A DNA stretch of 64,000 nt from contig CALXQH010000043.1 in assembly GCA_944390525.1 (NCBI GenBank), forward strand, positions 1,988 through 65,987, in the 5' to 3' direction. The notes beneath the pieces are model-generated. The model did no database searches and had not been told where the DNA came from. It was given only the letters and a program-made list of their open reading frames with translations. The stretch comes from an uncultured Clostridia bacterium (GTDB lineage Bacteria; Bacillota; Clostridia; TANB77; CAG-508). A program made the translations under genes and the position numbers. Positions within the stretch are counted from its first letter, which is position 1. Every line of letters starts with the position of its first letter. This document shows positions 45,842 to 62,442 of this stretch, piece after piece.

Positions 45842-48580
45842 ATGGGATTATTTAAAACATATAGTCAAAAAGAAGTTAGAAGAGTAAAGCCAATAGTAGA
45901 AAAAATAAATAATTTAGAATCTGAAATTGAAAAGTTAACAGATGAAGATTTAAGAAATAAAACTCTAGAGTTTAAAAAAAGAATACAACAAGGAGAAACC
46001 CTAGATAGCATTCTACCAGAAGCTTTTGCTGTTGTAAGAGAAGCATCAAAAAGAGTATTAGGAATGAGACATTTTGACGTTCAATTAATAGGAGGAATAA
46101 TATTGCACCAAGGAAGAATAGCAGAAATGAAAACAGGTGAAGGAAAAACTCTTGTTGCAACATTGCCTGTATATTTAAATGCTTTAACAGGAAAAGGAGT
46201 CCATGTTGTTACAGTTAATGATTACTTAGCTAAAAGAGATAGCGAATGGATGGGAAAAGTATATAAATTTTTAGGATTAACAGTTGGGTTAGTTATTAGT
46301 GGAATGAATCCAGAATTAAAAAGAGCAGCATATAATGCAGATGTAACATATGGTACTAACAATGAATTTGGCTTTGATTATTTAAGAGATAATATGGTTA
46401 TATATAAAGAACAATTAGTACAAAGAGAATTAAATTATGCTATAGTTGATGAAATTGATAGTATTTTGATAGATGAAGCACGTACTCCTCTAATTATATC
46501 AGGAAGAGGAGCTCAATCATCAGATTTATATAAAAGGGCTAATAACTTTGTATCAAAATTATCTCCTAAAATTTTAGTAGAAGAAGATATAAAAAATGAA
46601 GAACAAGCTGAAGATAATGAGAACTATGATTATATAGTTGATTTAAAAGCAAAATCTGCTTCATTAACTCAGAAAGGTATTCAAAAAGCAGAAAGAGAAT
46701 TTAATTTAGAGAATTTTAATGATATTGAAAATTCTGAGTTAGTACATAATATTAACCAAGCTCTAAGAGCACATGGGATTATGAAAAAAGATATAGATTA
46801 CATAGTTAAAGATGGAGAAGTCCTTATAGTAGATGAGTTTACTGGAAGAATTATGTATGGAAGAAGATATAATAATGGACTTCATCAAGCTATTGAAGCT
46901 AAGGAACATGTAAAAATTGCGGATGAATCTAAAACTTTAGCAACAATTACTTTTCAAAATTATTTTAGAATGTATAATAAACTTGCAGGAATGACTGGTA
47001 CTGCTATGACAGAAGAAGCAGAATTTGAAGAAATATATAAATTAGACGTAATAGAAATTCCAACTAATAGAGAAATGATACGTAAAGATCATCCAGACAT
47101 TATTTATAAAAATGAAAATGCAAAATTTAAAGCGGTTATAGAAGATATTAAAAGAAGCTATGAAAAAGGGCAACCTGTATTAGTAGGTACTGTTTCCATA
47201 GAAAAATCTGAAAAATTGAGTAATATGCTAAAAAAAGAAGGAATTAAACATCAAGTTTTAAATGCTAAATTTCATGAAAAAGAAGCTGAAATTATAGCAC
47301 AAGCAGGAAAATTTGGAACTGTTACAATAGCTACAAATATGGCAGGACGTGGTACTGATATTATGCTTGGTGGTAACGGTGAATATTTGGCAAAACAAGA
47401 AATGAGAAAATTTGGCTATACAGAAGAACAAATTGAACAAGCAACAGCTTTTAACGAAACATCAGATGAAACAGTATTAACTTCAAGAAATAAATTTAAA
47501 GAATTAAAAAATAAATTTGAAAATGAAATTAAAGATGAAAAACAAAAAGTAATAAATGCTGGAGGCTTAAAGATTATTGGTACAGAAAGACACGAATCTA
47601 GAAGAATTGATAACCAGCTTCGTGGACGTAGCGGACGTCAAGGAGATATTGGAGAATCAAGATTTTATATAGGATTAGATGATGACTTAATGAAAATTTT
47701 TGGTGGAGATATAATTACTAAAGTTTATGATACTCTTGGAGCAGATGAAAACATGCCTATTGAATCAAAAATAATATCTAATGCAGTAGAAAATGCTCAA
47801 AAGAAAGTAGAAGGTAGAAATTTTAGTATTCGTAAAAATGTTCTTTCTTATGATGATGTTATGAATGTACAAAGAGGAATTATATATGATGAAAGAAGAA
47901 AGGTACTAAATGGAGAAAACTTAAAAGAACATATTAATAAAATGATGTGTTCTTTAGCAGAACAAACTATAAATGAATATTTATCAGATGCTGATAACAT
48001 GAACATTGAAGGATTTATACAAGATATTAAAGAAATATATGGTATTTCAGATTTAGACTCTCTTCATAAAGATAAAATTAAAATAAATGAAATAACTGAA
48101 GAATTAGAAAATAAAATTAATAATATTTATGAAGAGAAAGAAAAGATTATTGGTGAAAACAACATGAGAGAACTTGAAAGAGTTATTATGTTGAAAATAG
48201 TTGATGAAAGATGGATGGACCATATAGATGCAATGGATGAATTAAAAGATGGAATAGGGCTTCAAGCATATGGACAAAAAGATCCTGTCGTTCAATATAG
48301 AATTGAAGGTTTTGATATGTTTGAGCAAATGAACTTAGACATTCAAACTGATGTTGTAAAATTTTTAATGAATGCTCGAAAAAGAGAAGGAGAAGTTCAA
48401 AGGACATCTTCAGTAAAAATCACGGGAGAAGGATTAGATGATACTGTTTCAAAAGAATTAGGTGTAAATTCTCAAAAAACATCAAATACAACAGTAGTAA
48501 AAGAAGAACCAAAAGTTGGCAGAAACGATCCTTGTCCATGTGGAAGTGGTAAGAAATATAAACAATGTTGTGGAAAATAG
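45842..48580 (+). CDS. secA: Preprotein translocase ATPase SecA
   Basis: 912 aa with DEAD-like motor motifs ([19 protein letters not shown]) and a C-terminal zinc-binding [14 protein letters not shown]. Confidence 0.95.
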
Positions 48581-48662
48581 TATAAAATGAAGAATATAAA
48601 GATGTATATAGAAAAGTAAATAATAATTTTATAAAATTAAGTAAAAAAGGAGCTTTATAAAT

Positions 48663-49082
48663 ATGCAAGACTTAATGAAAACAAATTGTTTGGAAGTAAA
48701 TGATACAATAATTATCGTTGGAAGTTGTATAGAAAGAATGCAACCAGAAGCATATAAAGAACTAGAAAAAATATCAAATAATATATATGAAGTTTGTTTA
48801 GAAAAAGAACATTTAAATATGGTTATTACAAAATTAATAGGAATGGTTTCAAGAGCAAAACTTAATAAAATAATATTTGCTACAGTTGACAAATCTCCTC
48901 ATTGTATACAACTTCATTACATAATAAAAGAAATAAAAAAAGCTATAGATTTAAATAGTATAAAAGTTTTGAATTATGTAGCAGTTGATAATAAATTAAT
49001 TGAAATTCCTAATGAAATTATTAGTTTATCAAAGAATTTCTCTAAGTTATTAGAATTTAGAGAATTATTATACAATAAATAA
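48663..49082 (+). CDS. Hypothetical protein (139 aa)
   Basis: RBS aaaggag. First gene of the insertion between secA and prfB. Confidence 0.35.
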   Translation: MQDLMKTNCLEVNDTIIIVGSCIERMQPEAYKELEKISNNIYEVCLEKEHLNMVITKLIGMVSRAKLNKIIFATVDKSPHCIQLHYIIKEIKKAIDLNSIKVLNYVAVDNKLIEIPNEIISLSKNFSKLLEFRELLYNK

Positions 49083-49137
49083 GGGTATTTTAATTAATAC
49101 ATATATTTGAGAGCAAAATAAATTATAAAGTGAAATA

Positions 49138-49161
49138 ATGACAAAGTCTTCTATTTGTCAT
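49138..49161 (+). promoter_or_regulatory. Perfect 8-bp-arm palindrome (ATGACAAA-N8-TTTGTCAT), a candidate operator upstream of the first NDT-like gene
   Basis: Seen directly in the sequence. Located 30 nt upstream of the ATG. Confidence 0.3.
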
Positions 49162-49190
49162 CAAAAAATAAAAAGGAGGAATTTAAAACT

Positions 49191-49604
49191 ATGAACAAAA
49201 TTTTTATAATATGTAGTAAAGCTTTTTATAAGGATATAGCACCAATTAAAGAAAAATTAAAAGAAAATGGTTGGGAAGTATTTTTACCACATACATATGA
49301 AAATCCTAATGCTGAAAAAGAATGGTATACTAAAGGAAAAGAAGAACATGCAAAAATGAAAGGCGAAATGTTTAGAAAAAGTAGAGATAGAATAAAATCA
49401 ATGGATGCAGTATTAACTTTAAATTTTGATAAAAACGGAAAAAAGAATTATATTGGTGGTTCAACATTTCTTGAACTATATGAAGCTTTTATGGAAAATA
49501 AAAAGATATATTTATGGAATGAAATACCAGAGGGAATTTTATTTGACGAGATAAGTGGATTCGCACCTGAAATTATTAATGGAAATTTAGATTTAATAAA
49601 ATAG
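49191..49604 (+). CDS. Small protein resembling nucleoside 2-deoxyribosyltransferase (NDT fold), copy 1
   Basis: Conserved blocks IICSKAFY, MDAVLTLNF and GGSTFLELYEAF, with a Glu in the position of the NDT catalytic Glu. Paralog of 57589..58011. Confidence 0.45.
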   Translation: MNKIFIICSKAFYKDIAPIKEKLKENGWEVFLPHTYENPNAEKEWYTKGKEEHAKMKGEMFRKSRDRIKSMDAVLTLNFDKNGKKNYIGGSTFLELYEAFMENKKIYLWNEIPEGILFDEISGFAPEIINGNLDLIK

Positions 49605-49632
49605 AGATAAATTAAAAAATAGGTAACTTCCC

Positions 49633-49674
49633 AAAATACTAAGAAATGTAATATTACATTTCTTAGTATTTTTC
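49633..49674 (+). terminator. Strong rho-independent terminator
   Basis: aatactaagaaatgtaat/attacatttcttagtatt followed by a T-run. Confidence 0.7.
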
Positions 49675-49878
49675 GAAGATAGTGCAATTTTAGAAATACT
49701 CAAGTTAAAAAAGGTCTGCAAACTTTAGTAACAAACACTATATAAAAGTAATTTAATTAAAAATTTAAAAAACAGTTTGGATAAATCTTATACAAATTAA
49801 AATATTTTAAGCGGTAAGTATATGAAATTTTCTTCTTTTAGTATATAATAATATAAAAGAAAAATATAAAGGAGATGA

Positions 49879-50652
49879 ATTAAAATTAAAGAATTTGAAG
49901 CAAAAAAAGAAACTGAAAAAGTTATTGAATTTATACGAGAATATTATAAGAAAAATAATTTAGGAGGAGCCATAATTGGAATCTCTGGAGGAAAAGACAG
50001 TGCAGTTGTTTCAGCCTTATTTACAAAAGCACTGGGAAGCGAAAATATAATTGGAGTAACAATGCCTTGTTATTCAAATATAGAAGATAAAATTGATGCT
50101 AAGCTTATTAGTGATTATTATGGATTTAAAATGATTAATTTTGATATTACAGGAATTTTTGATACTTTTAAAAATGAATTAAATAGTTTAGGAAATTTTT
50201 CTAAAGAAGATGTAAAAAACAGTGATATTAATCTAAAACCAAGACTTAGAATGACAACTCTTTATTATTTAGCTGCATTATATAGTACTATTAAGAAAAA
50301 AACTTATTTAGTAGTTGGTACATCTAATAAATGTGAATTATATGTAGGTTATTTTACTAAGGGAGGAGATTCTGTTCACGATATATCTCCAATAGCAGAT
50401 TTTACTGTTGAAGAGGTAATAAAAATTGGAGAATATTTAAAAGTTCCATCAAAAGTACTTTATAAAACTCCAAATGATGGTTTATCTAATAAAAATGATG
50501 AAGATAAATTAGGAGTGAAATACAGTCAAATAGCATCTTATATAAAAGATAAAAATAGTGTTGATGAGAAAACAAAGAAAAAGATAGAGCAACTACATAA
50601 CAATAGCAAACATAAATTTGAAATTCCAATTTATAGAAAAGGTGGACAATAA
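49879..50652 (+). CDS. nadE: NH3-dependent NAD+ synthetase. The start codon is uncertain: there is no in-frame ATG/GTG/TTG, and an ATT start or a 1-nt indel is possible.
   Basis: Open frame IKIKEFEAKKETEKVIEFIREYYKK...GISGGKDSAVV (PP-loop SGGxDS) continuing into the tracked ORF 50062..50652. The ATG at 49875 is out of frame by +1. Confidence 0.6.
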   Translation: MKIKEFEAKKETEKVIEFIREYYKKNNLGGAIIGISGGKDSAVVSALFTKALGSENIIGVTMPCYSNIEDKIDAKLISDYYGFKMINFDITGIFDTFKNELNSLGNFSKEDVKNSDINLKPRLRMTTLYYLAALYSTIKKKTYLVVGTSNKCELYVGYFTKGGDSVHDISPIADFTVEEVIKIGEYLKVPSKVLYKTPNDGLSNKNDEDKLGVKYSQIASYIKDKNSVDEKTKKKIEQLHNNSKHKFEIPIYRKGGQ

Positions 50653-50653
50653 G

Positions 50654-51193
50654 ATGAAAATAGGAGTATTTGTAGGAACTTTTGATCCAATACATAAAGG
50701 ACATACAGATATAATTAACTATTTAATAAAAGAAAAAATAGTTGATAAAGTATTGGTTATTGCAACTGGTAATTATTGGGACAAACAAAATATAACAGAC
50801 TTAAAAATAAGATTAGATATGTTAAACTTAATAAAGAATAATGACATAATAATTGATAAAAAACATAATAAATTAAAATATACTTATCAAATATTAGATA
50901 ATTTAAAAAAAGAAAACAAAGAGCATGAATTCTATCTGATAATAGGAGCTGATAATGCCAAGCTACTTTATAAATGGGAACATTTTAATGAATTAATAGA
51001 AAATAATATAATAGTTATAGCAAGAAATAATGAAAAAATAAATTTAAAAACAGAAAAAATGATAATTATAGATAAAAATTTTGGAAATATATCATCTACC
51101 AAAATAAGAAATGATATTGAAAAATATAAAGAATATATAAACAAAAATGTTTATTATTATATAAAAAAGAATAATATATATAATTCAAATTAA
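50654..51193 (+). CDS. nadD: Nicotinate-nucleotide adenylyltransferase
   Basis: GTFDPIHKGH (HxGH) motif and ISSTKIR. RBS aaggtgg. Sits 1 nt after the nadE stop. Confidence 0.75.
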   Translation: MKIGVFVGTFDPIHKGHTDIINYLIKEKIVDKVLVIATGNYWDKQNITDLKIRLDMLNLIKNNDIIIDKKHNKLKYTYQILDNLKKENKEHEFYLIIGADNAKLLYKWEHFNELIENNIIVIARNNEKINLKTEKMIIIDKNFGNISSTKIRNDIEKYKEYINKNVYYYIKKNNIYNSN

Positions 51194-51222
51194 TTAAACA
51201 TTTATGAAAGGAAAAATGAAAT

Positions 51223-51589
51223 ATGAGTTTTATAGGAAATATTTTATGGTTTATTTTTGGAGGTATTTTTAGTGGATTATCTTGGATTTTATCAGGAATA
51301 ATTTGGTGTGTAACTATTGTTGGAATTCCTTATGGATTACAATGCTTTAAATTTGCATCACTTTCATTTGCTCCATTTGGAAAAGAGGTAGAATATGGTG
51401 GAGGAGTAACATCGTTATTTGCAAATATAATATGGATTATATTTTTTGGTATTCCAATGGCTTTAGAAAATATAATTTTAGGTTGCATATGGTGTATAAC
51501 AATAGTAGGAATACCTTTTCGGGTTACAGTTTTTTAAAATTGCAAAATTGTCTTTAGCACCTTTTGGAGCAAAAATAGTATATAACTAA
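51223..51589 (+). pseudogene. YccF-like (DUF307) inner membrane protein, disrupted by a +1 frameshift near 51520
   Basis: Repeat 1 reads GIPYGLQCFKFASLSFAPFG. Repeat 2 continues only in the +1 frame as ...PFGLQFFKIAKLSLAPFGAKIVYN*. Removing c51520 restores a full-length protein. Confidence 0.5.
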
Positions 51590-51612
51590 AGAGTTTAAAG
51601 GAGTGAAATTTT

Positions 51613-52512
51613 GTGAAAACAGAAAAAAGTATTTTAATAGCTTTTATCTTAAATTTATTATTTTCATTACTTGAATTAATAGGCGGAATATTTACCAATA
51701 GTATATCAATAATATCTGATGCAATCCATGATTTTGGAGATGCATTAAGTATAGGAATATCATTAGTATTAGAAAAAATAAGCAAAAAGAAACCAGATAA
51801 AAAATATACTTATGGATATGCTAGATATTCAGTGCTTGGAGCATTAATAACAACTATTATATTAACAATAGGTTCTATATTTGTAATACTAGGTGGAATA
51901 AACAGAATTTTAAAACCTGAAATAATTAACTATAATGGAATGATTATTTTTGCTATATTTGGAGTAATAATTAATTTTCTTGCCACTTATTTTACAAGAA
52001 AAGGGGATTCAATAAATCAAAAAGCAGTAAATTTACATATGCTTGAAGATGTATTAGGTTGGATAGTAGTATTAATAGGTTCTATACTCATGAAGTTTAC
52101 AAACATTTTAGTAATAGATTCTATTATGTCCATAGGTATAGCAATATTTATATTTATTAGTGCTTACAAAAATTTAAAAGATATTTTAGATTTATTTTTA
52201 GAAAAAACACCTAAAAATATATCTGTAGAAGAAATTAAAAAATCTTTATTAAATATAAAAGATATAATAGATGTTCATCACATTCATATATGGAGCATAG
52301 ATGGTTTTACTAATTATTCAACAATGCATATTGTTACTGAAAATAAAAACGTAAAAGAATTAAAAAGTCAAATAAGAAATGAAATGTGTAAACAAGGCAT
52401 TTCTCATACAACAATAGAAATAGAAGATAAAAATGATAATTGTGATGAAAAAGAATGTGAAATTAAGATTAATAATAAAGAAAATCATCAGCATCAGCAT
52501 CATCACCATTAG
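51613..52512 (+). CDS. czcD: Cation diffusion facilitator family transporter (Zn/Co/Cd efflux, CzcD-like). Uses a GTG start.
   Basis: 6 TM helices with the HD...D metal site, and a C-terminal His-rich tail NHQHQHHHH. Confidence 0.8.
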   Translation: MKTEKSILIAFILNLLFSLLELIGGIFTNSISIISDAIHDFGDALSIGISLVLEKISKKKPDKKYTYGYARYSVLGALITTIILTIGSIFVILGGINRILKPEIINYNGMIIFAIFGVIINFLATYFTRKGDSINQKAVNLHMLEDVLGWIVVLIGSILMKFTNILVIDSIMSIGIAIFIFISAYKNLKDILDLFLEKTPKNISVEEIKKSLLNIKDIIDVHHIHIWSIDGFTNYSTMHIVTENKNVKELKSQIRNEMCKQGISHTTIEIEDKNDNCDEKECEIKINNKENHQHQHHHH

Positions 52513-52563
52513 AAATATAAAAGGTGAAAATACGATTAAAATAAGAAAGGAATTAAAGCAATT

Positions 52564-52773
52564 ATGAAAGAAATAAATTTAAAAGTAAATGGAATGCACT
52601 GTAAAGGATGTGAAAATAGAATTAAAAATTTATTAAGTACAATAGATGGAGTTGATGAAGTTATTGCAAATCACATTAATGGTACAGTTGTAATTAAAGC
52701 AAATAAAGAAATTGATTTAAAAAAAATAAGAGAAATAATAGATGATTTAGGATTTGAAGTTGAGGAAAATTAA
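52564..52773 (+). CDS. copZ: Heavy-metal-associated copper chaperone
   Basis: 69 aa with the HMA motif GMHCKGC. Confidence 0.75.
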   Translation: MKEINLKVNGMHCKGCENRIKNLLSTIDGVDEVIANHINGTVVIKANKEIDLKKIREIIDDLGFEVEEN

Positions 52774-52775
52774 AT

Positions 52776-54983
52776 ATGAAAAATATTATATTAGTAATAG
52801 AAGGAATGACTTGTAGTGCTTGCTCTAATGGATTAGAGAAATATTTAAATAAACAAAATGGAGTAATAAATGCAAATGTAAATCTTGTAATGGCAAATGC
52901 AAATATTGATTATGATGAAAATATCTTAGACCAAGAAAAAATTGAAAAATATGTAAAACAAGCAGGATTTAAAAGTGGAGGAATTTTTAAAGAATTTAAA
53001 ATTGAAAAAGAAAATAAAACTGAAAAAATAAAATTTATAGTATTTTCAATATTAGCAATAATTCTAATGTATATATCAATGGGACACATGATAAATTTGC
53101 CGCTTCTTGCAGTATTTAATTCACGTACAAACCCTATTATTTATACAAGTTCATTATTTATATTAACAGTTCCATTTTTAATTTACGGATATGATATTTT
53201 AAAAAATGGATATAAAAATTTAATACACAAAATTCCAAATATGGATACATTAGTATCAATAGGGGTAATTAGTAGTTTTATATATAGCTTATATGGAATG
53301 TTTAAAATAATAAAAGGTGATTATAGCTATATAATGAGTTTATATTTTGAATCATCAGCTATAATAATTTATTTTGTGAAACTTGGAAGATATCTAGATG
53401 GCGTTAATAAAGATAAAACCAAAGAAGCAATAAAAAAATTAGTGGAGATAACGCCAAGTAAAGCTACTATTGAAATAAATGGAAAAGAAAAAGAAATAAC
53501 TTTAGATGAAATAAAGAAAGATAATATATTAATAAGTAAACCAGGAGAAAAAATAGCGGTTGATGGTGAAATAATAGAGGGTAAAGCACATCTAGACGAA
53601 TCTTTTATTACAGGAGAAAGCAAACCGATAATGAAAAAAGATGGAGAAAAAGTTATTGCAGGGAGCCTTAATTATGACGGATTCATAAAATATAAAGCAG
53701 AAAAGATAGGCAAAGAGTCAACTATATCAGAAATAATCAGATTAGTTATAGAAGCAAGCAATACCAAATCACCAATAGCAAAAATTGCAGATAAAATTTC
53801 AGGATATTTTGTACCAACTGTATTAGCTATATCAATAGTAACATTAGTTGTATATTTATTGTTAGGTTTTAATTTATCTACTGCTATTTCAACATTTGTT
53901 ACAATACTCGTAGTAGCTTGTCCATGCAGTTTAGGATTAGCTACACCACTTGCTATAGTTGTAAGTGAGGGTATATGTCTTAGCAATGGAATATTAGTGA
54001 AGAAAAGTGAAATATTAGAAACGGCCTCAAAAATAAATACTATAGTTTTTGACAAAACAGGAACATTAACTTATGGAAAACTTAAAATTTTCAAGATATA
54101 TAATTATAGTAATCTTAAAAATAAAGAACTTTTGCAGATAGTAGGAAGTATAGAAGTAAAGTCAACGCATCCAATTGGAAAAGCTTTTTCAGACTATATT
54201 AATGAAAATAAACAAGTTAAATTAGTGGTAAATAACTTTGAAAATATGACAGGATATGGTATTATAGGAGAAATTCAAAATCAAAAGTATATATTAGGTA
54301 ATAGAAAAATAGTAGAAAAATTTTCCATTGCAAATACTCATATAGAAGATGAGAAAGAATTAACGGCAAAAGGAAATAGTATTATTTATGTTATTAAAAA
54401 TGAAGAAATAATAGCTTTAATTGGAGTAAATGATATTGTAAGAAAAAATGCTAAGGAAACTATAAAAAAATTAAATCAAAAGAATATTAAAACTATTATG
54501 CTCACAGGAGATAATAAAGAAACAGCTGAAAATATAGGAAAAGAAATAGGAATTTCAGAAATTATTTCTAATGTATTACCATCAAAAAAAGCAGAAATAA
54601 TAAAGAAGTTAAGAAAAGAAAATAAAAAAGTAATGATGTGCGGAGATGGAATAAATGATAGCCCAGCTTTAGCAAATAGTGATATTGGAGTAAGTGTAAA
54701 GAGTGGAACAGATATAGCAATAGATTCTGCTGATGTAATACTAATTAAAAATGACTTAAATTCTATTTTAAAATTGATAAATATAAGTGAAAATACAGTA
54801 AGAAATATAAAACAAAATTTATTTTGGGCATTTTTCTATAATGTATTAATGATACCTATAGGAATGGGAATATTAAGGCCAATAGGAATTTCAATAAATC
54901 CGATGATTGCTAGCCTAGCGATGATATTTAGTAGCCTTACTGTTATTACAAATGCTCTAAGTTTAAAAAAGTTAAATCTATAG
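52776..54983 (+). CDS. copA: Cu+-exporting P1B-type ATPase
   Basis: N-terminal HMA GMTCSACS, the CPC motif in TM6, DKTGT, YN and MxxSS in TM7/8, and GDGINDSPAL. Confidence 0.85.
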   Translation: MKNIILVIEGMTCSACSNGLEKYLNKQNGVINANVNLVMANANIDYDENILDQEKIEKYVKQAGFKSGGIFKEFKIEKENKTEKIKFIVFSILAIILMYISMGHMINLPLLAVFNSRTNPIIYTSSLFILTVPFLIYGYDILKNGYKNLIHKIPNMDTLVSIGVISSFIYSLYGMFKIIKGDYSYIMSLYFESSAIIIYFVKLGRYLDGVNKDKTKEAIKKLVEITPSKATIEINGKEKEITLDEIKKDNILISKPGEKIAVDGEIIEGKAHLDESFITGESKPIMKKDGEKVIAGSLNYDGFIKYKAEKIGKESTISEIIRLVIEASNTKSPIAKIADKISGYFVPTVLAISIVTLVVYLLLGFNLSTAISTFVTILVVACPCSLGLATPLAIVVSEGICLSNGILVKKSEILETASKINTIVFDKTGTLTYGKLKIFKIYNYSNLKNKELLQIVGSIEVKSTHPIGKAFSDYINENKQVKLVVNNFENMTGYGIIGEIQNQKYILGNRKIVEKFSIANTHIEDEKELTAKGNSIIYVIKNEEIIALIGVNDIVRKNAKETIKKLNQKNIKTIMLTGDNKETAENIGKEIGISEIISNVLPSKKAEIIKKLRKENKKVMMCGDGINDSPALANSDIGVSVKSGTDIAIDSADVILIKNDLNSILKLINISENTVRNIKQNLFWAFFYNVLMIPIGMGILRPIGISINPMIASLAMIFSSLTVITNALSLKKLNL

Positions 54984-55010
54984 AATTTAAAAATAGAAAT
55001 AAATTAAATT

Positions 55011-55517
55011 ATGAATTTTATTAAAATATTTGACTTAAAGTATACTTTTATTAAAGCCACAGTTACATCTACAATGTACGATATGACAAGAGTAAATGCT
55101 AATGGATATTTTGATAAAGGCGATAACGAAGAAACGCGATATCAAATGAAAAAAGCATTAAATGAGGAAAGAATAAGAGATTATAAAAATAATTCTTATG
55201 AAAGAGCTGATGGTTGCTTAGAATTACCTGTTCCAGATAATGTACCATTTTTCGTTAAAGATTATAGTGAGTATTATAAAGGTAGATGTTATCATAAGAG
55301 AAGTTTAAATTCTAATGAAGGGTGGAACAAAACTGGATATATGTCTTTTATAAATCAACCAATACTAAAATATAGTAATGAAATTAGAAGTGCTGTTTTA
55401 ATGATTCATGGAGAAAAAGCGCACTTTTGCTATTTTAGTAAAGATGCGTATAGAAATATGATAAAAGGTAGTAAATATACACATAATAAAGAATTATTGA
55501 ATAAGGAAAAAAATTAG
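55011..55517 (+). CDS. Hypothetical protein, possibly a gene remnant
   Basis: It has no SD. The C-terminal LMIHGEKAHF resembles the catalytic-His region of an alpha/beta hydrolase. Confidence 0.3.
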   Translation: MNFIKIFDLKYTFIKATVTSTMYDMTRVNANGYFDKGDNEETRYQMKKALNEERIRDYKNNSYERADGCLELPVPDNVPFFVKDYSEYYKGRCYHKRSLNSNEGWNKTGYMSFINQPILKYSNEIRSAVLMIHGEKAHFCYFSKDAYRNMIKGSKYTHNKELLNKEKN

Positions 55518-55531
55518 GAGAAAAAGCTTAA

Positions 55532-56071
55532 ATGAGAAAAAAGATAATTATAATAACTATAATATCAAGTATTATTATTATGGTAGGAATATCTGTGAAG
55601 AATTTGATGGATAATAAAAAAGATAAAGAAAATATTCTTATAGAAGATACATATTCTAATAATAGTAATGATGAAAATGAAGAAATAATAAATGATGAGG
55701 AGAAAAATAAAATTATGCAATTGTATTTAAAAATTAATAATAGAACTTTAACAGTATTATTAGAAAATAATTCATCAGTAGATGCATTAATAGATAAATT
55801 AAAACAAAATGATATTACAATAAATATGAGAGATTATGCTAATTTTGAAAAAGTAGGAGAGCTAGAATTTGAATTACCACGAAATGATAAACAGATTACA
55901 ACACAAGCAGGAGATATAATTTTATACCAAGGAAATTCAATAACTATTTATTATGACGTTAATAGTTGGAGTTTTACAAAGTTAGGGAAAATACAAAAAA
56001 TTACTCAAGATGAATTAAAAGATATATTAGGTACAGGGAACGTAATAGTTACATTTTCTTTAAAAAAATAA
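55532..56071 (+). CDS. Hypothetical N-terminally anchored extracytoplasmic protein (179 aa)
   Basis: Signal/TM segment with RBS ggag. No assignable motifs. Confidence 0.35.
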   Translation: MRKKIIIITIISSIIIMVGISVKNLMDNKKDKENILIEDTYSNNSNDENEEIINDEEKNKIMQLYLKINNRTLTVLLENNSSVDALIDKLKQNDITINMRDYANFEKVGELEFELPRNDKQITTQAGDIILYQGNSITIYYDVNSWSFTKLGKIQKITQDELKDILGTGNVIVTFSLKK

Positions 56072-56164
56072 ATTATTTAACACTCTCTTTTAAGAAAGAA
56101 CTTTACAAAATGATTATGGAATAATATAATACAGTTGTAAATATCTTTATGGAGGAATTTAAAA

Positions 56165-56731
56165 ATGAGAAAAAACATTAAAACATCTGAAGCAATATTT
56201 CCTATGCCTGTATTAATGATAGCAACATATAATGAAGATGGAAGTATTGATGTAATGAATGCAGCCTGGGGAACAATGTTAAGTAAAAATCAAGTAATAT
56301 TAAATTTAACAGAAACACATAAGACTGTTAAAAATATTAAAACAAGAAAAGCATTTACTGTTAGTATTGCTGATAGTAAACATGTTGTAGAAGCAGATTA
56401 TTTTGGAATAGTGTCGGCCAATAATACTCATAATAAATTTGAAAATAGTGGATTAACAGCAACAAAATCAGAAAATGTAGACGCACCGATTATAAACGAA
56501 TTTCCTATTTGTCTTGAGTGTGAATTTATAGAATACCAAGCTGATGAATATGGATGTGGAGTAATAGGAAAAGTAGTAAATGTAACTGCAGATGAAAATG
56601 TAATGAATGGAGAAAATGTTGATATTGAATTAGTTAATGCTATTACATTTGATCCATATACTCATGGATATTATAAAGTTACTGAAAGAGTTGGAAATGC
56701 CTTTAAAGACGGGCTACAACTAAAAAAATAG
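56165..56731 (+). CDS. Flavin reductase-like FMN-binding protein
   Basis: N-terminal MPVLMIATYNEDGSIDVMNAAWG is typical of the flavin reductase-like domain. Confidence 0.65.
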   Translation: MRKNIKTSEAIFPMPVLMIATYNEDGSIDVMNAAWGTMLSKNQVILNLTETHKTVKNIKTRKAFTVSIADSKHVVEADYFGIVSANNTHNKFENSGLTATKSENVDAPIINEFPICLECEFIEYQADEYGCGVIGKVVNVTADENVMNGENVDIELVNAITFDPYTHGYYKVTERVGNAFKDGLQLKK

Positions 56732-56741
56732 TAATGAAATT

Positions 56742-56778
56742 AAAAGACAGATAGTTTATTGAAAATTATCTGTCTTTT
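56742..56778 (+). terminator. Rho-independent terminator
   Basis: aaaagacagata...tatctgtctttt. Confidence 0.7.
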
Positions 56779-56917
56779 AATATATAATCAAAACAATAAT
56801 TAGTGCAATATATTAAAAAATACAAATGATGATAAGAAATATAACAACATAACTATTTAGAGATAATTAATATCAATTAGTATTAAAAATGCATATTATA
56901 ATTTAGGAGGGATAAAA

Positions 56918-57427
56918 ATGTATTCAGATTATTATAATATGTATAATCAATATTATGGCTTTAATGACCAAAATTATAGAAGTAATGAGAATCAAACGAG
57001 TAATGAAGAAATAATTACTTTAAATCAAGCTATAGACTTAATTAGACAATCTGTAGAAAATGAAAAAGAAGATGAGATGTTTTATGATACTATAATAAAA
57101 CAAGCACCAACAGAAAAAGAAAAAGACATAATAAGAAGTATTAGAGATGATGAAAAAAAACATAATCAAATTTTAAGAAAATTATATTATGAATTTACAG
57201 GACAGATACTACCAGTAGATACTTTAGCAAACGAATTAAATAATATTATGGACTACAAATTGAATTTAGAAAAAGCTTTATTTGGTGAATTAGATGCAGT
57301 AGTAAAATATAGAAAAATAATGGGAACAATGCCAAGTGGTAGTAGTTATACATTACTTATGTCTATTATGACAGATGAGCTAAGACATGCAAATAAATAT
57401 AATTTTTTAATACACAATGCAAAATAG
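56918..57427 (+). CDS. Ferritin-like / rubrerythrin-type four-helix-bundle protein with a Tyr-rich N-terminus. Possibly a spore coat protein.
   Basis: ExxH-like pairs (EKEDEMFYD...EKKHNQ, ELDAVVKY...DELRHA) and the N-terminal YSDYYNMYNQYYG. Confidence 0.45.
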   Translation: MYSDYYNMYNQYYGFNDQNYRSNENQTSNEEIITLNQAIDLIRQSVENEKEDEMFYDTIIKQAPTEKEKDIIRSIRDDEKKHNQILRKLYYEFTGQILPVDTLANELNNIMDYKLNLEKALFGELDAVVKYRKIMGTMPSGSSYTLLMSIMTDELRHANKYNFLIHNAK

Positions 57428-57464
57428 AAACTTAAATAGAATATAAAAATGCATTGTAGCATTA

Positions 57465-57494
57465 CCCAGTGTCTAAAAACACTGGTTTTTCTTT
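57465..57494 (+). terminator. Rho-independent terminator
   Basis: ccagtgt-ctaaaa-acactgg followed by tttttctttt. Confidence 0.7.
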
Positions 57495-57528
57495 TGATTA
57501 AAACAAGATATATTATATCACTTTATAT

Positions 57529-57557
57529 TTGCATTTTTTTCATTATTCTATTATAAT
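57529..57557 (+). promoter_or_regulatory. Sigma-A promoter for the NDT-like/MTase/nuclease operon
   Basis: TTGCAT, 17 nt spacer, TATAAT, located 31 nt upstream of the ATG. Confidence 0.45.
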
Positions 57558-57588
57558 ATAAACATATATTAATTGGGAGAAATTAAAA

Positions 57589-58011
57589 ATGAAAATATTA
57601 ATTATTTGTAGTAAAAAATTTTATTCAAAAATAGAAGAAATTAAATATAAATTAGAGAAAGCAGGCCACATTATATATTTACCAAACTGTTATGATGATC
57701 CGTCAACTGAAGAAAAAATGAAAAGTTTGGGAAAAAAGGAACACCAATTATTTAAGGCAAAAATGTTTAAACAAAGTGAAAATACCATAAAAGAAATGGA
57801 CGCTGTATTAGTTTTAAACTTTAACAAAGAAAAAAATGGTATAATTTATGAAAATTATATAGGTGGAGCAACATTTTTAGAAATGTATGATGCTTTTAAA
57901 AATAATAAAAAAATATTTTTATATAATGATATTCCTGAAGGAATGTTGTTTGATGAAATAGAAGGTTTTGCACCTATAATAATAAATGGTAATTTAAACA
58001 ATGTTAAATAA
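57589..58011 (+). CDS. Small protein resembling nucleoside 2-deoxyribosyltransferase, copy 2. First gene of the operon with the MTase.
   Basis: About 55% aa identity to copy 1. Blocks ILIICSKKFY, MDAVLVLNF and GGATFLEMYDAF. Confidence 0.45.
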   Translation: MKILIICSKKFYSKIEEIKYKLEKAGHIIYLPNCYDDPSTEEKMKSLGKKEHQLFKAKMFKQSENTIKEMDAVLVLNFNKEKNGIIYENYIGGATFLEMYDAFKNNKKIFLYNDIPEGMLFDEIEGFAPIIINGNLNNVK

Positions 58012-58035
58012 TAAACATAATTCAAAGGAGAAACT

Positions 58036-59250
58036 ATGAACAACGAAATTTACATAGGAGACAATTATGACGTTTTATCTAATAAGAAATTTAGAGATAA
58101 ATATATAAATAAATTAAAATTGATTTATATAGATCCTCCATACAATACCTTAAATCAAAAGTCTTATAAAGATAAAACAGATAGTAACTATTGGGCTGAA
58201 TTTATTGAATGTAGATTGCAGCTTTCTAAAGATTTACTAAAAGAAGATGGAGTAATTTTTATTAGTATTGATGATAATGAGTTTGCTTCTTTAAGAATTA
58301 TTTGTGATAAAATTTTTGGTAAAGAAAATTTTGTGGGAACGTTTATAACCCAACAAGCACAAAGAAGTAATGCAAAATACATTAATACGGTACATGAATA
58401 TATAATTTGTTTTGCTAAAAACAAAAAAAAGCTTCAAAAGTTTCAAGTAAATAGAATGGAAATACCAGAAGACAATAAAATGATTACAAAACTTAAGACA
58501 GAAATAAAAGAAATATATAATACCGAAGGATATAAAGAGGCCAATAAAAAAATTAAAGATATTATAAAAAATTATTGTGAAGAATATGGTATTTCATGGT
58601 TACGAAATTATTCAAATGTAGACGAAAATGGAAGAATATATTTTGCTGTTGATTTATCTACACCTAGTAATCCACGAGAAGTAAATATTCCTGAAATAGG
58701 TTTAAAACTAGATCCTTTACAAACAAGAGGTTGGATAAGTGATAAAAGATTTATAGAATTATTCAATAAAAAAAGGTTATGTTTTAAGGGAAATAGACCA
58801 TATTCAAAATTATACATAGAAGAAGCAATGGATAATGCTCCATCTATACTAAAATTTTACTCACGTCATGGAACAAATGATTTAAAAAAGTTAGGATTAG
58901 ATGATTTATTTGATACACCTAAACCTGTAGAACTAATAAAATTTCTAATTAGAATTTCTACAAAACCGGAAGACATTGTTTTAGATTTTTTTGCTGGTTC
59001 TGGAACAACTGCACAAGCTGTTTACGAATTAAATTCAGAAGAAAACAGAAATAATAGTTATATTTTAGTACAAATAGACGAAAAAATAGATTCTAAAACC
59101 TCAGTCTACAAAAAATGTAAAGAATTAAAAATAACCCCAAGCATGAAAAATATATTAACATACAGAATAGATACTTTTTTAAAAAAACAAAATATAAAAA
59201 AAGATTATACTTTATATGAAGAAATGGAAGAGAAAATAAATGAACAATGA
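58036..59250 (+). CDS. Beta-class DNA methyltransferase (N6-adenine or N4-cytosine, PF01555-like)
   Basis: Motif IV IDPPYNT lies upstream of motif I FFAGSGTTAQA, the circular permutation typical of the beta class. An insert of about 250 aa between them is a likely TRD. Confidence 0.8.
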   Translation: MNNEIYIGDNYDVLSNKKFRDKYINKLKLIYIDPPYNTLNQKSYKDKTDSNYWAEFIECRLQLSKDLLKEDGVIFISIDDNEFASLRIICDKIFGKENFVGTFITQQAQRSNAKYINTVHEYIICFAKNKKKLQKFQVNRMEIPEDNKMITKLKTEIKEIYNTEGYKEANKKIKDIIKNYCEEYGISWLRNYSNVDENGRIYFAVDLSTPSNPREVNIPEIGLKLDPLQTRGWISDKRFIELFNKKRLCFKGNRPYSKLYIEEAMDNAPSILKFYSRHGTNDLKKLGLDDLFDTPKPVELIKFLIRISTKPEDIVLDFFAGSGTTAQAVYELNSEENRNNSYILVQIDEKIDSKTSVYKKCKELKITPSMKNILTYRIDTFLKKQNIKKDYTLYEEMEEKINEQ

Positions 59251-59899
59251 AGATTTAAAATTATTTGAAAAAGGAAATTATCAAAATATTAATCAAAATT
59301 TTATAGAAGAAGGAAAAACAGTTTTACAAGAATTGCAAAAAGTACAAGAAAAATATGATAAACTTGATACAGATACTTTTATAAATGAACTTAGAGATTC
59401 AATAGCAGGTTATACTTTAGGTTTTAACCTAGTTAATGTAGAAAAACATGGTTTTGACTGTAAGAGTAATAATTTATATTTAGAAGTTAAATCTGCAAGC
59501 TTTTCTTCAGAATCTTGGCAAGCAACATTTAATGATACAACATTAGAAAAAGCAGAAGCGTTTAAAGATAAGAAAGTATTTTTAGCTTTAGCAGTTTGGA
59601 AAGGTGCAAGTGATCTACTATTTATTTGTTATGGTCAAAATGAAAAAATAGGAAAATTTTTAGAAAAAAAAGTAAAATGGTTTAAAGATGGAAATACTGT
59701 TAGAAGTACTCAATCTATACCTTTAACAAAATTAGTATTTGATTATGGCTTTAATATATTAGCTGTTAATAGATCAAAAAAAGAAATACTTTCTATGCTT
59801 AAAAATAAAAATACAAAATTTAAAAAATTACAAGAAGATGACATTATAAGTATTGAAGAATTTAATGTATTTAAGATAAAGGATGTGGTACAATGTTAG
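59240..59899 (+). CDS. Candidate PD-(D/E)xK nuclease (putative restriction endonuclease partner)
   Basis: GFD-x10-EVK arrangement (D...E-x-K). It overlaps the MTase by 11 nt. Its stop overlaps the prfB start (ATGTTAG). Confidence 0.4.
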   Translation: MNNEDLKLFEKGNYQNINQNFIEEGKTVLQELQKVQEKYDKLDTDTFINELRDSIAGYTLGFNLVNVEKHGFDCKSNNLYLEVKSASFSSESWQATFNDTTLEKAEAFKDKKVFLALAVWKGASDLLFICYGQNEKIGKFLEKKVKWFKDGNTVRSTQSIPLTKLVFDYGFNILAVNRSKKEILSMLKNKNTKFKKLQEDDIISIEEFNVFKIKDVVQC

Positions 59900-61003
59900 A
59901 ATTAGAAGAAAATTTGAAGAGCCTACAGGAATTTAAAAAGCGTTTAGAACAAATAGGTGATTCACTTTGATGTAAATTATAAGGAACAAGAATTAAAAAA
60001 ATTAGAACAATTAACAACACAAAATAATTTTTGGAATGATATTAATAATAGTTCTAAAATTTTAAAACAAATAAATAGCTTAAAATCTAAATTAGAAGAA
60101 TATAGAAAGTTAAATGTACAACTTAATAATTTAATTGATATTAATAATCTTTTACAAATGGAATTAGATGTAGATTTATTTAAAGAGTTATTAAAATCTA
60201 CAACTATTTTAGAAAAAGATATAGAAAAATTAGAAATAACAACATTATTACATGGTAAATATGATTATAATAATGCCATTATAACAATTCATCCGGGTGC
60301 AGGAGGAACAGAAGCTCAAGATTGGGCAGAGATGCTTTATAGAATGTATTCAAGATGGGCAAACAATAATGGCTATCAAATAAAAGAACTAGACTATCTT
60401 GAAGGAGATGAAGCTGGCCTTAAAAGTGTTACTTTTAGTATTAATGGAGCATATGCATATGGCTATCTTAAGGGAGAAATGGGAGTTCATCGTTTAGTTA
60501 GAATTTCTCCTTTTGATGCTGGAGGGAGAAGACATACATCATTTGCTTCTATAGAGGTTCTACCAGAAATAACAGAAGATATTGAAATAGAAATTAATCC
60601 AGATGATTTAAGAATTGATACATACCGTGCTTCAGGTGCAGGAGGGCAACATATAAATAAAACATCTTCTGCTATTAGAATTACACATATACCTACAAAT
60701 ATAGTAGTTTCCTGTCAATCAGAACGTTCTCAAATACAAAACCGAGAAACTGCAATGAAAATGCTTAAATCAAAATTATTAAATTTAAAAGAGCAAGAAC
60801 AAAAAAATACTATTGATGAACTAAAAGGAATTCAAATGGATATTGCTTGGGGAAGTCAAATTCGTTCGTATATATTCTGCCCATATACCTTAGTAAAAGA
60901 TCATAGAACGAACTATGAAGTAGGAAATGTACAGGCGGTAATGGATGGAGAAATAAATGGATTTATTGATAGTTATTTAAAACATAATTTAGAAAAATCT
61001 TAG
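59893..61003 (+). CDS. prfB: Peptide chain release factor 2, with the programmed +1 frameshift at codon 26
   Basis: Frame 0 reads MLELEENLKSLQEFKKRLEQIGDSL then UGA. The +1 frame continues DVNYKEQELKKLEQ... The GGQ motif SGAGGQHINKT and SPF-like region are present. Confidence 0.85.
59951..59972 (+). promoter_or_regulatory. prfB autoregulatory +1 frameshift site
   Basis: SD-like AGGUGA lies 3 nt upstream of the CUU UGA U slippery/stop context, as in E. coli prfB (AGGGGG..CUU UGA C). Confidence 0.8.
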
Positions 61004-62284: not shown

Positions 62285-62442
62285 TTTTAATATTAAATAA
62301 TGGGGGATTATCTCTCATTATTTATAAATTATTTATAATAAAAAATATATTTATTCAAAATTAATTTAATCTAAAGAATTTTATCTTTTAAAATCCAAAA
62401 TAACTAAAATCAATTAAATAATTAAAAATATGGGGGATCTTT

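What the first reader, a model, noticed from the sequence alone, without database searches (positions are those of the whole stretch)
57529..59899. NDT-like small enzyme, beta-class DNA methyltransferase and PD-(D/E)xK nuclease in one operon, welded onto prfB
A promoter at 57529-57557 (TTGCAT-17-TATAAT) drives three tightly packed genes. The first is a 140-aa protein whose conserved blocks resemble the nucleoside 2-deoxyribosyltransferase (NDT/Rcl) fold, with a Glu where NDT has its catalytic Glu. The second is a methyltransferase with DPPY upstream of FxGSGTT, which is the beta-class permutation. The third is a 219-aa protein with a D-x10-E-V-K nuclease signature. The gap between the first two genes is 24 nt with its own RBS, the second and third overlap by 11 nt, and no terminator intervenes. 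A methyltransferase plus a PD-(D/E)xK protein already looks like a type II restriction-modification system. The N-glycosyl-transferase/hydrolase-fold protein co-transcribed ahead of the methyltransferase is not a standard RM component. Such a fold could, speculatively, exchange or excise bases on nucleotides or DNA, by loose analogy with DpdA-type base swapping, or act as a nucleotide-depleting effector. This could be an uncharacterised DNA-modification or defence module.
Basis: partly seen in the sequence, partly recalled or inferred. Interest (0 to 1): 0.75.

Follow-up and report, generated by a model that had tools for sequence, protein, structure and literature searches.

The report
Ordinary restriction-modification pair beside unrelated NDT-fold gene
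The methyltransferase and the 219-aa protein form a normal two-gene restriction-modification cassette sitting just upstream of prfB, and the small NDT-fold gene ahead of them is an independent, widespread gene that neighbours the cassette only in this one lineage.

Summary
The one correction is the nuclease motif, which is D73-x8-E82-V-K84, not D-x10.

The fold calls hold:
- The 404-aa protein (M) is a PF01555 beta-class methyltransferase with DPPY before FAGSGTT.
- The 219-aa protein (R) models at pLDDT 91.4 and matches the PvuII endonuclease fold.

The three-gene module does not hold:
- R homologues have an M homologue next to them in 28 of 30 metagenome loci and in every longer contig examined. 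None carries A.
- A homologues in 26 other contexts never have M or R nearby, and their neighbours are essentially all different.
- Only three sibling lineages share A-M-R-prfB. One has lost the catalytic core of A and kept M-R. Another has lost R and kept A-M.
- In a more distant relative, similarity to the window starts at the first base after A's stop codon, and a NUDIX gene sits where A would be.

Verdict: this is a type II RM cassette with an unannotated PvuII-fold endonuclease, plus a bystander NDT-fold gene. Interest is low.

The parts
57466..57485 (+). Terminator-like hairpin followed by a T-run. It ends the upstream rubrerythrin gene and lies outside the block shared with relatives.
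   Evidence: The blastn block shared with siblings begins only at 57522.
57529..57557 (+). Sigma-70-like promoter (TTGCAT-17-TATAAT, or TTTGCA-18-TATAAT). It is the likely start of a transcript running through A, M, R and prfB.
   Evidence: Both hexamers are conserved in sibling L010. Function was not tested.
57589..58011 (+). Gene A: a 140-aa stand-alone NDT-superfamily protein with conserved D71, N77, G92, E98 and K107. It is probably a nucleoside or nucleotide N-glycosidase/transferase and is not part of the RM cassette.
58036..59250 (+). Gene M: a 404-aa beta-class, Mod-like DNA methyltransferase, probably N6-adenine (DPPY 33-36, FAGSGTT 319-325).
   Evidence: PF01555 at 1.1e-46. PADLOC MTase_II at 3.3e-104. 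Closest solved relatives are type III Mod subunits 6k0w (1.2e-51) and 4zcf (7.6e-42).
59240..59899 (+). Gene R: a 219-aa PvuII-fold PD-(D/E)xK restriction endonuclease (D73, E82, K84). Its disordered C-terminal tail runs into the prfB start codon.
   Evidence: The catalytic triad is invariant in 40 homologues. The AF2 model has pLDDT 91.4, with residues 213-219 below 50. The top Foldseek hits are PvuII, 1f0o at E 2.4e-4 and TMt 0.63. An M homologue is adjacent in 28 of 30 loci.
59893..59970 (+). First reading frame of prfB (25 codons then TGA). It overlaps R by 7 nt and has the programmed +1 frameshift site CTT TGA at 59965-59970.
59969..61003 (+). Main reading frame of prfB (RF2, PCRF + RF-1 domains), read after the +1 frameshift.

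Best explanation
M and R together are a conventional type II restriction-modification cassette. M is a beta-class, Mod-like methyltransferase, probably N6-adenine because of its DPPY motif. It marks a still unknown target sequence. R is a PvuII-fold PD-(D/E)xK endonuclease that would cut the unmarked target. An ancestor of this clostridial lineage acquired the cassette directly upstream of prfB, and R's stop codon now overlaps the prfB start codon. Gene A is a separate chromosomal gene from a large, highly conserved, uncharacterised branch of the NDT superfamily. From its fold and conserved Asp/Glu it most likely cleaves or transfers the N-glycosidic bond of free nucleosides or nucleotides, in salvage or pool cleaning. 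It is co-transcribed with M-R only because of where it sits. Shown here: the folds, the motifs, the M-R co-occurrence, the lack of A/M-R co-occurrence, the independent losses, and purifying selection on all three genes. Inferred: the enzymatic activities, the target sequence and the operon structure.
For: M-R as a unit: an M homologue is directly adjacent to R in 28 of 30 metagenome loci. The two exceptions are contigs of about 1.1 kb with too little flank. Both gene orders occur. The pair also occurs in L010, L012, L013-15, L074 and L077 at unrelated chromosomal sites, next to genes such as dnaA, dnaN, mnmE, rpsJ and rpe. Even a 34%-identical R on a viral contig is followed by a weak PF01555 ORF. 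R has the PvuII fold with invariant D73/E82/K84. A is independent: 24 A loci have no M or R by tblastn. Of 88 genes within two positions of A, 82 are singletons, and the only shared ones are between two closely related genomes. No DNA methyltransferase Pfam family was listed among the 46 immediate neighbours. L041 and L043 also lack the pair. No A-family member was found in any M-R locus when 46 diverse A sequences were used as queries. A is absent from the phage collection, from IMG/VR viral contigs (close relatives only) and, bar one weak 29%-identity hit, from the plasmid collection. Within the lineage: L010 has a 215-nt frameshifting deletion in A that removes residues 47-118, including D71, N77, E98 and K107, while M-R-prfB are intact. 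L039 keeps A and M but has lost R except for its last ~60 nt, which carry the prfB start region. In L074 similarity to the window starts at 58012, the first base after A's stop, and a NUDIX gene lies upstream. dN/dS is 0.125 for A, 0.083 for M and 0.19 for R, with dS similar to flanking core genes. This indicates vertical co-divergence under constraint.
Against: A, M and R share one plausible promoter with no terminator between them. In three sibling lineages the shared block begins at the same point, window 57522, just before that promoter. A and M-R have therefore been transcriptionally linked for a substantial time (dS about 0.5-0.7). NDT-like domains are genuine defence effectors in retron Ec86 (bioRxiv 10.1101/2023.08.16.553469), so a defence role for this fold is not absurd. 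No activity, methylation motif or transcript was measured.
Confidence: 0.8

Rival explanations
1. A, M and R form a functional three-component module. The NDT-fold enzyme would contribute to defence or DNA modification, for example by base exchange or excision, nucleotide depletion on infection, or removing methylated nucleotides from the pool.
For: The three genes are tightly packed behind one promoter-like site with no terminator between them. The block has the same left boundary in three sibling lineages. A is under purifying selection in two of them. NDT-like effectors exist in retron defence. In L074 a NUDIX hydrolase, another nucleotide-pool enzyme, occupies the same position upstream of M.
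Against: There is no co-occurrence outside this lineage, tested from both directions. A has been pseudogenised while M-R stay intact in L010. The M-R-prfB block is older than its association with A. Among the families listed for the flanks of 21 other M-R cassettes there is no recurring nucleotide-hydrolase gene. A is not found on phages, viral contigs or (apart from one weak hit) plasmids.
Confidence: 0.06
2. The RM cassette in this window is a decaying or already inactive remnant, or M now acts mainly as an orphan or epigenetic methyltransferase. It would be kept because prfB expression depends on transcription and translation through it.
For: A sibling lineage has lost R and kept M. It retains exactly the 3' stub of R that precedes the prfB start codon. 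R overlaps the prfB start. R has the highest dN/dS in the block, 0.19.
Against: R in the window is full length. All 54 family-invariant residues, including D73, E82 and K84, are by definition present in it. The model is confident. A dN/dS of 0.19 is still clear purifying selection.
Confidence: 0.12
3. M-R is a cut-down type III system rather than type II, because M is most similar to type III Mod subunits.
For: The closest solved relatives of M are Mod subunits: 6k0w at 1.2e-51 and EcoP15I Mod 4zcf at 7.6e-42. Many PADLOC MTase_III models also hit M.
Against: The best PADLOC model is MTase_II, at 3.3e-104. M is 404 aa, against 618-644 aa for the Mod subunits. The partner is a 219-aa PvuII-fold nuclease with no helicase or ATPase (Res) domain. 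No Res-like gene is adjacent in the window or in the related loci whose gene tables were read.
Confidence: 0.02

Closest known systems
R.PvuII (type IIP restriction endonuclease; PDB 1f0o, 1pvu, 1pvi)
   Same: It is the best structural match to R (Foldseek E 2.4e-4, TMt 0.63, 18-20% identity). R has the same PD...(D/E)xK arrangement, with D73 just before one strand and E82/K84 in the next. Both are paired with a PF01555 beta-class methyltransferase. That M.PvuII is beta-class rests on its weak match to M (1boo) and on my own knowledge.
   Different: R has no sequence-level match to any Pfam, NCBIfam, PADLOC or PHROG model or to any PDB sequence. R is about 60 residues longer, with an extra N-terminal helical region and a C-terminal part. 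Its partner methyltransferase has DPPY and is Mod-like, which points to adenine rather than N4-cytosine methylation. The target sequence is unknown.
Type III Mod methyltransferases (EcoP15I Mod, PDB 4zcf; Mod, PDB 6k0w)
   Same: These are the closest solved relatives of M by sequence (1.2e-51 and 7.6e-42). They share the beta-class motif order and the conserved DPPYNT and FFAGSGTT blocks.
   Different: M is 404 aa rather than 618-644 aa. It has no Res partner and is instead paired with a small PvuII-fold nuclease.
Nucleoside 2-deoxyribosyltransferase superfamily (NDT 7o62, 6evs, 1f8x; YtoQ 8of6; MilB 4ohr; BcmB 4jen; DNPH1/Rcl)
   Different: The window protein itself matches no Pfam or NCBIfam model meaningfully. 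Identity to solved members is 11-16%. The position of NDT's second Asp (Asp92 in L. leichmannii, from my own knowledge) is a Gly in A. Substrate and reaction, transferase or hydrolase, are unknown.
Retron Ec86 (Eco1) NDT-like effector
   Same: It is an NDT-like domain used as a defence effector that depletes adenine derivatives (bioRxiv 10.1101/2023.08.16.553469).
   Different: That effector is a two-domain protein (NDT-like plus winged HTH) bound to a reverse transcriptase and msDNA. A is a single domain with no retron and no conserved partner, and it is found next to housekeeping genes.

Membership tests
Type II restriction-modification system | A DNA methyltransferase with the SAM-binding motif (FxGxG) and the catalytic (D/N/S)PP(Y/F) motif | tested here: met
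   PF01555 at 1.1e-46. DPPY at 33-36 and FAGSGTT at 319-325.
Type II restriction-modification system | A separate endonuclease gene with a recognised nuclease core | tested here: met
   The model (pLDDT 91.4) matches the PvuII fold. D73, E82 and K84 are invariant in 40 homologues.
Type II restriction-modification system | The methyltransferase and nuclease genes travel together across genomes | tested here: met
   Adjacent in 28 of 30 metagenome loci, plus L010, L012, L013, L074 and L077, at unrelated chromosomal sites and in both gene orders.
Type II restriction-modification system | Sequence-specific cleavage that is blocked by the cognate methylation | not testable with these tools
   Palindrome depletion (CATG, GATC) is equally strong in loci without R, so it gives no target.
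Beta-class N6/N4 methyltransferase (PF01555) | Catalytic motif IV lies N-terminal to SAM motif I, with the target-recognition region between them | tested here: met
   DPPY at 33-36, then about 280 residues, then FAGSGTT at 319-325. The PF01555 match spans residues 28-350.
Type III RM (Mod/Res) | A Res subunit with helicase/ATPase and nuclease domains next to Mod | tested here: not met
   The partner is a 219-aa single-domain PvuII-fold protein. No ATPase ORF is adjacent.
PvuII endonuclease family (sequence family) | Significant sequence match to the family model or to PvuII itself | tested here: not met
   No Pfam hit above noise and no PDB sequence hit at E<=10. The similarity is at fold level only.
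NDT superfamily | Flavodoxin-like three-layer fold that matches solved NDT/DNPH1/MilB structures best | tested here: met
NDT superfamily | A conserved catalytic Glu and a conserved Asp in the equivalent positions | tested here: inconclusive
   D71 and E98 are conserved in at least 90% of 46 homologues. PF05014 matches in relatives cover this region. No residue-level structural superposition was available, so equivalence to Glu98 of L. leichmannii NDT (named as catalytic in the paper read) is inferred from the motif.
Pfam PF05014 Nuc_deoxyrib_tr (sequence family) | Score above the gathering threshold | tested here: not met
   The window protein has no Pfam hit at E<=1. Only some relatives reach the model: 14 of 46 at E<=0.1, and P0376 at 30.1 bits against a cutoff of 28.8.
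Multi-gene defence/modification module that includes the NDT-like gene | The NDT-like gene co-occurs with the methyltransferase and nuclease across genomes | tested here: not met
   0 of 26 A contexts carry M or R. 0 of about 35 M-R loci carry A. A is pseudogenised in L010 while M-R are intact.

The most novel reading that the evidence does not exclude
In this one clostridial lineage the NDT-fold enzyme may have been recruited as an accessory to the methyltransferase. It could, for example, hydrolyse N6-methylated (deoxy)adenine nucleotides released by DNA turnover so that they are not re-incorporated, much as DNPH1 is described as cleaning modified dNMPs (my own knowledge). A NUDIX hydrolase sits at the same position upstream of M in a related genome (L074), which would then hint at a recurring 'pool-cleaning enzyme plus RM' arrangement.
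Probability: 0.05. Interest if true: 0.6.

Novelty: new member of a known kind. Interest (0 to 1): 0.2.

Why it matters
The proposed new NDT-containing defence or modification module would have been notable, but comparative genomics does not support it. Three modest points remain.
1. A PvuII-fold restriction endonuclease family of at least 410 clusters is labelled 'hypothetical' wherever a name is given, and no Pfam, NCBIfam, PADLOC or PHROG model covers it. Defence-system annotation pipelines that rely on these libraries will therefore miss the R half of these systems.
2. A large NDT-fold family (over 2,600 clusters at 90% identity and 775 at 50%) from gut-type Firmicutes has an excellent predicted structure and no known substrate.
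3. The locus is a clear small example of RM decay in sibling genomes. The stub of R that survives is exactly the part that precedes the start of the essential prfB gene.

Tried and rejected
1. Direct family scans of A and R against Pfam, NCBIfam, PADLOC, PHROGs and PDB sequences found nothing meaningful. Homologue profiles and structure prediction were needed.
2. Profile searches of PDB sequences with two A-family alignments gave only marginal NDT hits (6evs at E 0.27-0.78). The top hits were spurious N-terminal Rossmann-like or de novo proteins. So I could not obtain a residue-level alignment to a solved NDT.
3. The search for related loci with the diverse A alignment failed because it had no conserved 7-10 column stretch. 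The single-protein query reaches only fairly close relatives (the weakest found was 53% identical), so the genome and viral scans for A are biased to close relatives.
4. I tried to infer the RM target from palindrome avoidance. CATG (67 observed, 149 expected) and GATC are depleted in the window, but they are equally depleted in loci without R. TCGA is somewhat more depleted in R-carrying loci (ratio 0.56 vs 0.81), which is a weak and non-decisive lead.
5. Composition gave no sign of recent acquisition. GC is 22-26% across the block, like its flanks.
6. The 'nucleotide-hydrolase gene upstream of M-R' theme was prompted by NUDIX in L074 and a pyrophosphatase in L013. Among the families listed for the flanks of 21 other cassettes none recurs apart from a histidine kinase in two, and the rest are mostly housekeeping genes. 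Only the 25 best of 42 families were listed.
7. R has no match in PLSDB plasmids. A has none in INPHARED phages and only one weak, partial match (29% identity, E 6e-3) in a Rhizobium plasmid.
8. Literature searches found no paper linking NDT-like genes to RM systems. They found only the retron NDT-like effector.
Full report
OBSERVATION

The A-M gap is 24 nt and contains AAAGGAG. M and R overlap by 11 nt.

A perfect TATAAT lies at 57552-57557, with TTGCAT 17 nt upstream (the scanner reads TTTGCA-18). Promoter-like matches are not enriched in this DNA of about 24% GC: 61 were found against 70.7 expected. The site is therefore only a candidate, although both hexamers are conserved in a sibling genome.

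On the + strand the only terminator-like sites are at 57466-57485, before the promoter, and at 62294-62324, after divIC. The transcript could therefore run through A, M, R, prfB, yabP, yabQ and divIC.

prfB starts at ATG 59893. This overlaps the end of R by 7 nt (ATGTTAG). Its first frame reads MLELEENLKSLQEFKKRLEQIGDSL and stops at the classical +1 frameshift site CTT TGA (59965-59970), after which the main RF2 frame continues. The GTG start at 59957 in the ORF list is an artefact of that frameshift.

The one factual correction concerns the nuclease motif, which is D73-x8-E82-V-K84, not D-x10-E-V-K.

WHAT EACH PROTEIN IS

M. M matches PF01555 at 1.1e-46 and PADLOC MTase_II at 3.3e-104. DPPY at residues 33-36 precedes FAGSGTT at 319-325, which is the beta-class order. 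Its closest solved relatives are type III Mod subunits (6k0w at 1.2e-51, EcoP15I Mod 4zcf at 7.6e-42), but it is about 220 residues shorter.

R. R has no hit in Pfam, NCBIfam, PADLOC, PHROGs or PDB sequences. It has 410 homologues, none given any name other than 'hypothetical protein'. An alignment of 40 of them has 54 invariant columns, including H70-G-F-D73-C-K and L81-E82-V-K84. The AlphaFold model has pLDDT 91.4. Only the last seven residues, the stretch that runs into the prfB start codon, fall below 50. The best PDB matches are all PvuII (1f0o at E 2.4e-4, TM to target 0.63, 18-20% identity), followed by DpnI, NhoI and HincII. D73 lies just before one strand, and E82 and K84 lie in the next strand, as in a canonical PD-(D/E)xK hairpin.

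The block GGATFLE98MYDAFKNNK107KIFL resembles the NDT catalytic-Glu block, but I could not obtain a residue-level superposition, so the equivalence is an inference. Longer family members carry CobU, RNase T or MazG domains, which points to nucleotide chemistry in general.

IS IT ONE MODULE?

This was the decisive question, and it was tested from both sides.

Starting from R:
- In 30 metagenome loci (44-69% identity), an M homologue is directly adjacent in 28. The other two are contigs of about 1.1 kb. Both gene orders occur.
- tblastn with 46 diverse A-family sequences finds no A in any of them.
- Longer contigs show the pair at unrelated sites: after DUF4097 (L012), between a pyrophosphatase and TMEM164 (L013-15), and after rsgA-rpe (L077).
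- The flanks of 21 cassettes are genes such as dnaA, dnaN, mnmE, rpsJ, aroB and gpsA, with an occasional integrase or HEPN gene. No NDT-like family is among those listed.
- Even a 34%-identical R on a viral contig is followed by an overlapping ORF with a weak PF01555 match.

Starting from A:
- Twenty-two genome loci from Bacilli, Erysipelotrichaceae, Clostridia and others, plus L006 and L007, have no M or R within the fetched flanks of up to 6 kb.
- Of 88 genes within two positions of A, 82 are singletons. The only shared ones are between two closely related genomes.
- The immediate neighbours are tRNA synthetases, SmpB, TilS, GNAT enzymes and the like. No DNA methyltransferase was listed among them.
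- L041/L042 and L043 also lack the pair.
- A has no match in the phage collection, no close relative on IMG/VR viral contigs, and only one weak hit (29% identity) in the plasmid collection.

HISTORY OF THIS LOCUS

Three sibling lineages, at about 86% nucleotide identity, share a block that begins at window 57522, six bases before the -35 element. It runs through A, M, R, prfB, yabP, yabQ, divIC and rho. They differ as follows.
- The window lineage has all three genes intact. L001-L005 are near-identical copies of it (98-100% protein identity).
- L010/L011/L038 (a Clostridia MAG, GCA_051891195) have a clean 215-nt frameshifting deletion in A. It removes residues 47-118, which include D71, N77, E98 and K107. 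The promoter, M, R and prfB are intact.
- L039/L040 keep A (85% identity) and M but have lost R, apart from its last ~60 nt. That stub carries the approach to the prfB start codon.

A fourth, more distant relative (L074; R 76% identical) has NUDIX-M-R-prfB. Its similarity to the window begins at 58012, the first base after A's stop codon. The M-R-prfB junction is therefore older than the A-M junction.

The region between secA (window 45842-48580) and 57522 differs in every relative and contains an integrase in L039. It looks like a recombination hot spot.

Two other lineages have A near this neighbourhood without any RM. In L018, A is followed by an Ig-like ORF and then prfB. In L043, A follows yabP-divIC.

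dN/dS is 0.125 for A, 0.083 for M and 0.19 for R. dS values (0.43-0.78) are like those of the flanking core genes. All three genes have therefore been maintained and inherited vertically within this small clade. There is no GC anomaly.

MECHANISM

Most likely (0.8), M methylates an unknown target, probably at adenine N6 given DPPY, and R cleaves the unmethylated target as a PvuII-like type IIP enzyme. A is a separate nucleoside or nucleotide N-glycosidase/transferase that is merely co-transcribed with them. Because R's stop overlaps the prfB start, with no recognisable terminator or strong promoter between them, expression of the essential prfB gene probably depends on reading through the cassette. 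That may explain why the lineage that lost R kept R's 3' stub. This last point is an inference.

The target sequence could not be inferred. CATG and GATC are depleted in the window, but they are equally depleted in loci that lack R.

COMPARISON WITH KNOWN SYSTEMS AND NOVELTY

This is a type II RM system of a known kind. The endonuclease family is unannotated and resembles PvuII only at fold level. The methyltransferase is a short Mod-like beta-class enzyme.

NDT-like domains are known defence effectors in retron Ec86 (bioRxiv 10.1101/2023.08.16.553469). A shares none of that architecture or context.

The reading 'NDT-like gene as a new RM or modification component' is not excluded for this single lineage. 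It has about a 5% chance given the independent loss of A and the absence of co-occurrence elsewhere.

Overall interest is 0.2, and the novelty class is a new member of a known kind.

Noticed in passing
window 59893-59970 and 59957-61003: prfB has the programmed +1 frameshift. A 25-codon first frame ends at CTT TGA (59965-59970), preceded by an SD-like AGGTGA. The mechanical ORF call with a GTG start at 59957 is an artefact of this.
   Followed up: yes
L010 3565-3769 (also L011 and L038), aligned to window 57589-58011: A sibling genome carries gene A with a clean 215-nt internal deletion (window about 57725-57941) that shifts the frame and removes the conserved core. The promoter, M, R and prfB are intact.
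   Followed up: yes
L039 6600-6720 (also L040): Another sibling has lost R except for its last ~60 nt (EDDIISIEEYNGLKAKDVIQC). This leaves an orphan methyltransferase and preserves the sequence just before the prfB start codon.
   Followed up: yes
window 48581-57521: The roughly 9 kb between secA (45842-48580) and the conserved block differs in every relative. The window has a copper ATPase, a cyclophilin-like gene, a flavin reductase and a rubrerythrin. L039 has an S66 peptidase, an integrase and a histidine-kinase fragment. L010 has FtsX and a two-component system. This looks like an integration or recombination hot spot.
   Followed up: partly
L074 4294-4719: In a more distant relative a 141-aa NUDIX hydrolase (PF00293, 3.8e-20) occupies the position directly upstream of M, where the window has the NDT-fold gene. 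The flanks of 21 other cassettes show no such theme, so this is probably coincidence.
   Followed up: partly
whole window: CATG (67 observed, 149 expected, z -6.7), CTAG and GATC are strongly under-represented. The CATG and GATC depletion also appears in unrelated loci from similar gut Firmicutes, so it cannot be assigned to this RM system.
   Followed up: partly
P0244, P0306, P0338 (relatives of gene A): Some A-family members are predicted as fusions with CobU (cobinamide kinase), an RNase T-like exonuclease or MazG. I did not check whether these are real fusions or gene-calling artefacts.
   Followed up: no
L079 1683-4589 (IMG/VR viral contig): A 34%-identical relative of R lies on a viral contig. 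A SegE-like GIY-YIG ORF precedes it, and an overlapping ORF with a weak, sub-threshold PF01555 match follows it.
   Followed up: partly
L074 1321-1361 and 2405-2445, against window 48535-48588: Two 41-bp stretches in L074 match the 3' end of the window's secA at 88-90% identity. Their meaning is unknown. They could be secA remnants or a shared short motif.
   Followed up: no
L060, L066, L068, L070: In four of the more distant cassettes the gene order is R then M, rather than M then R.
   Followed up: no
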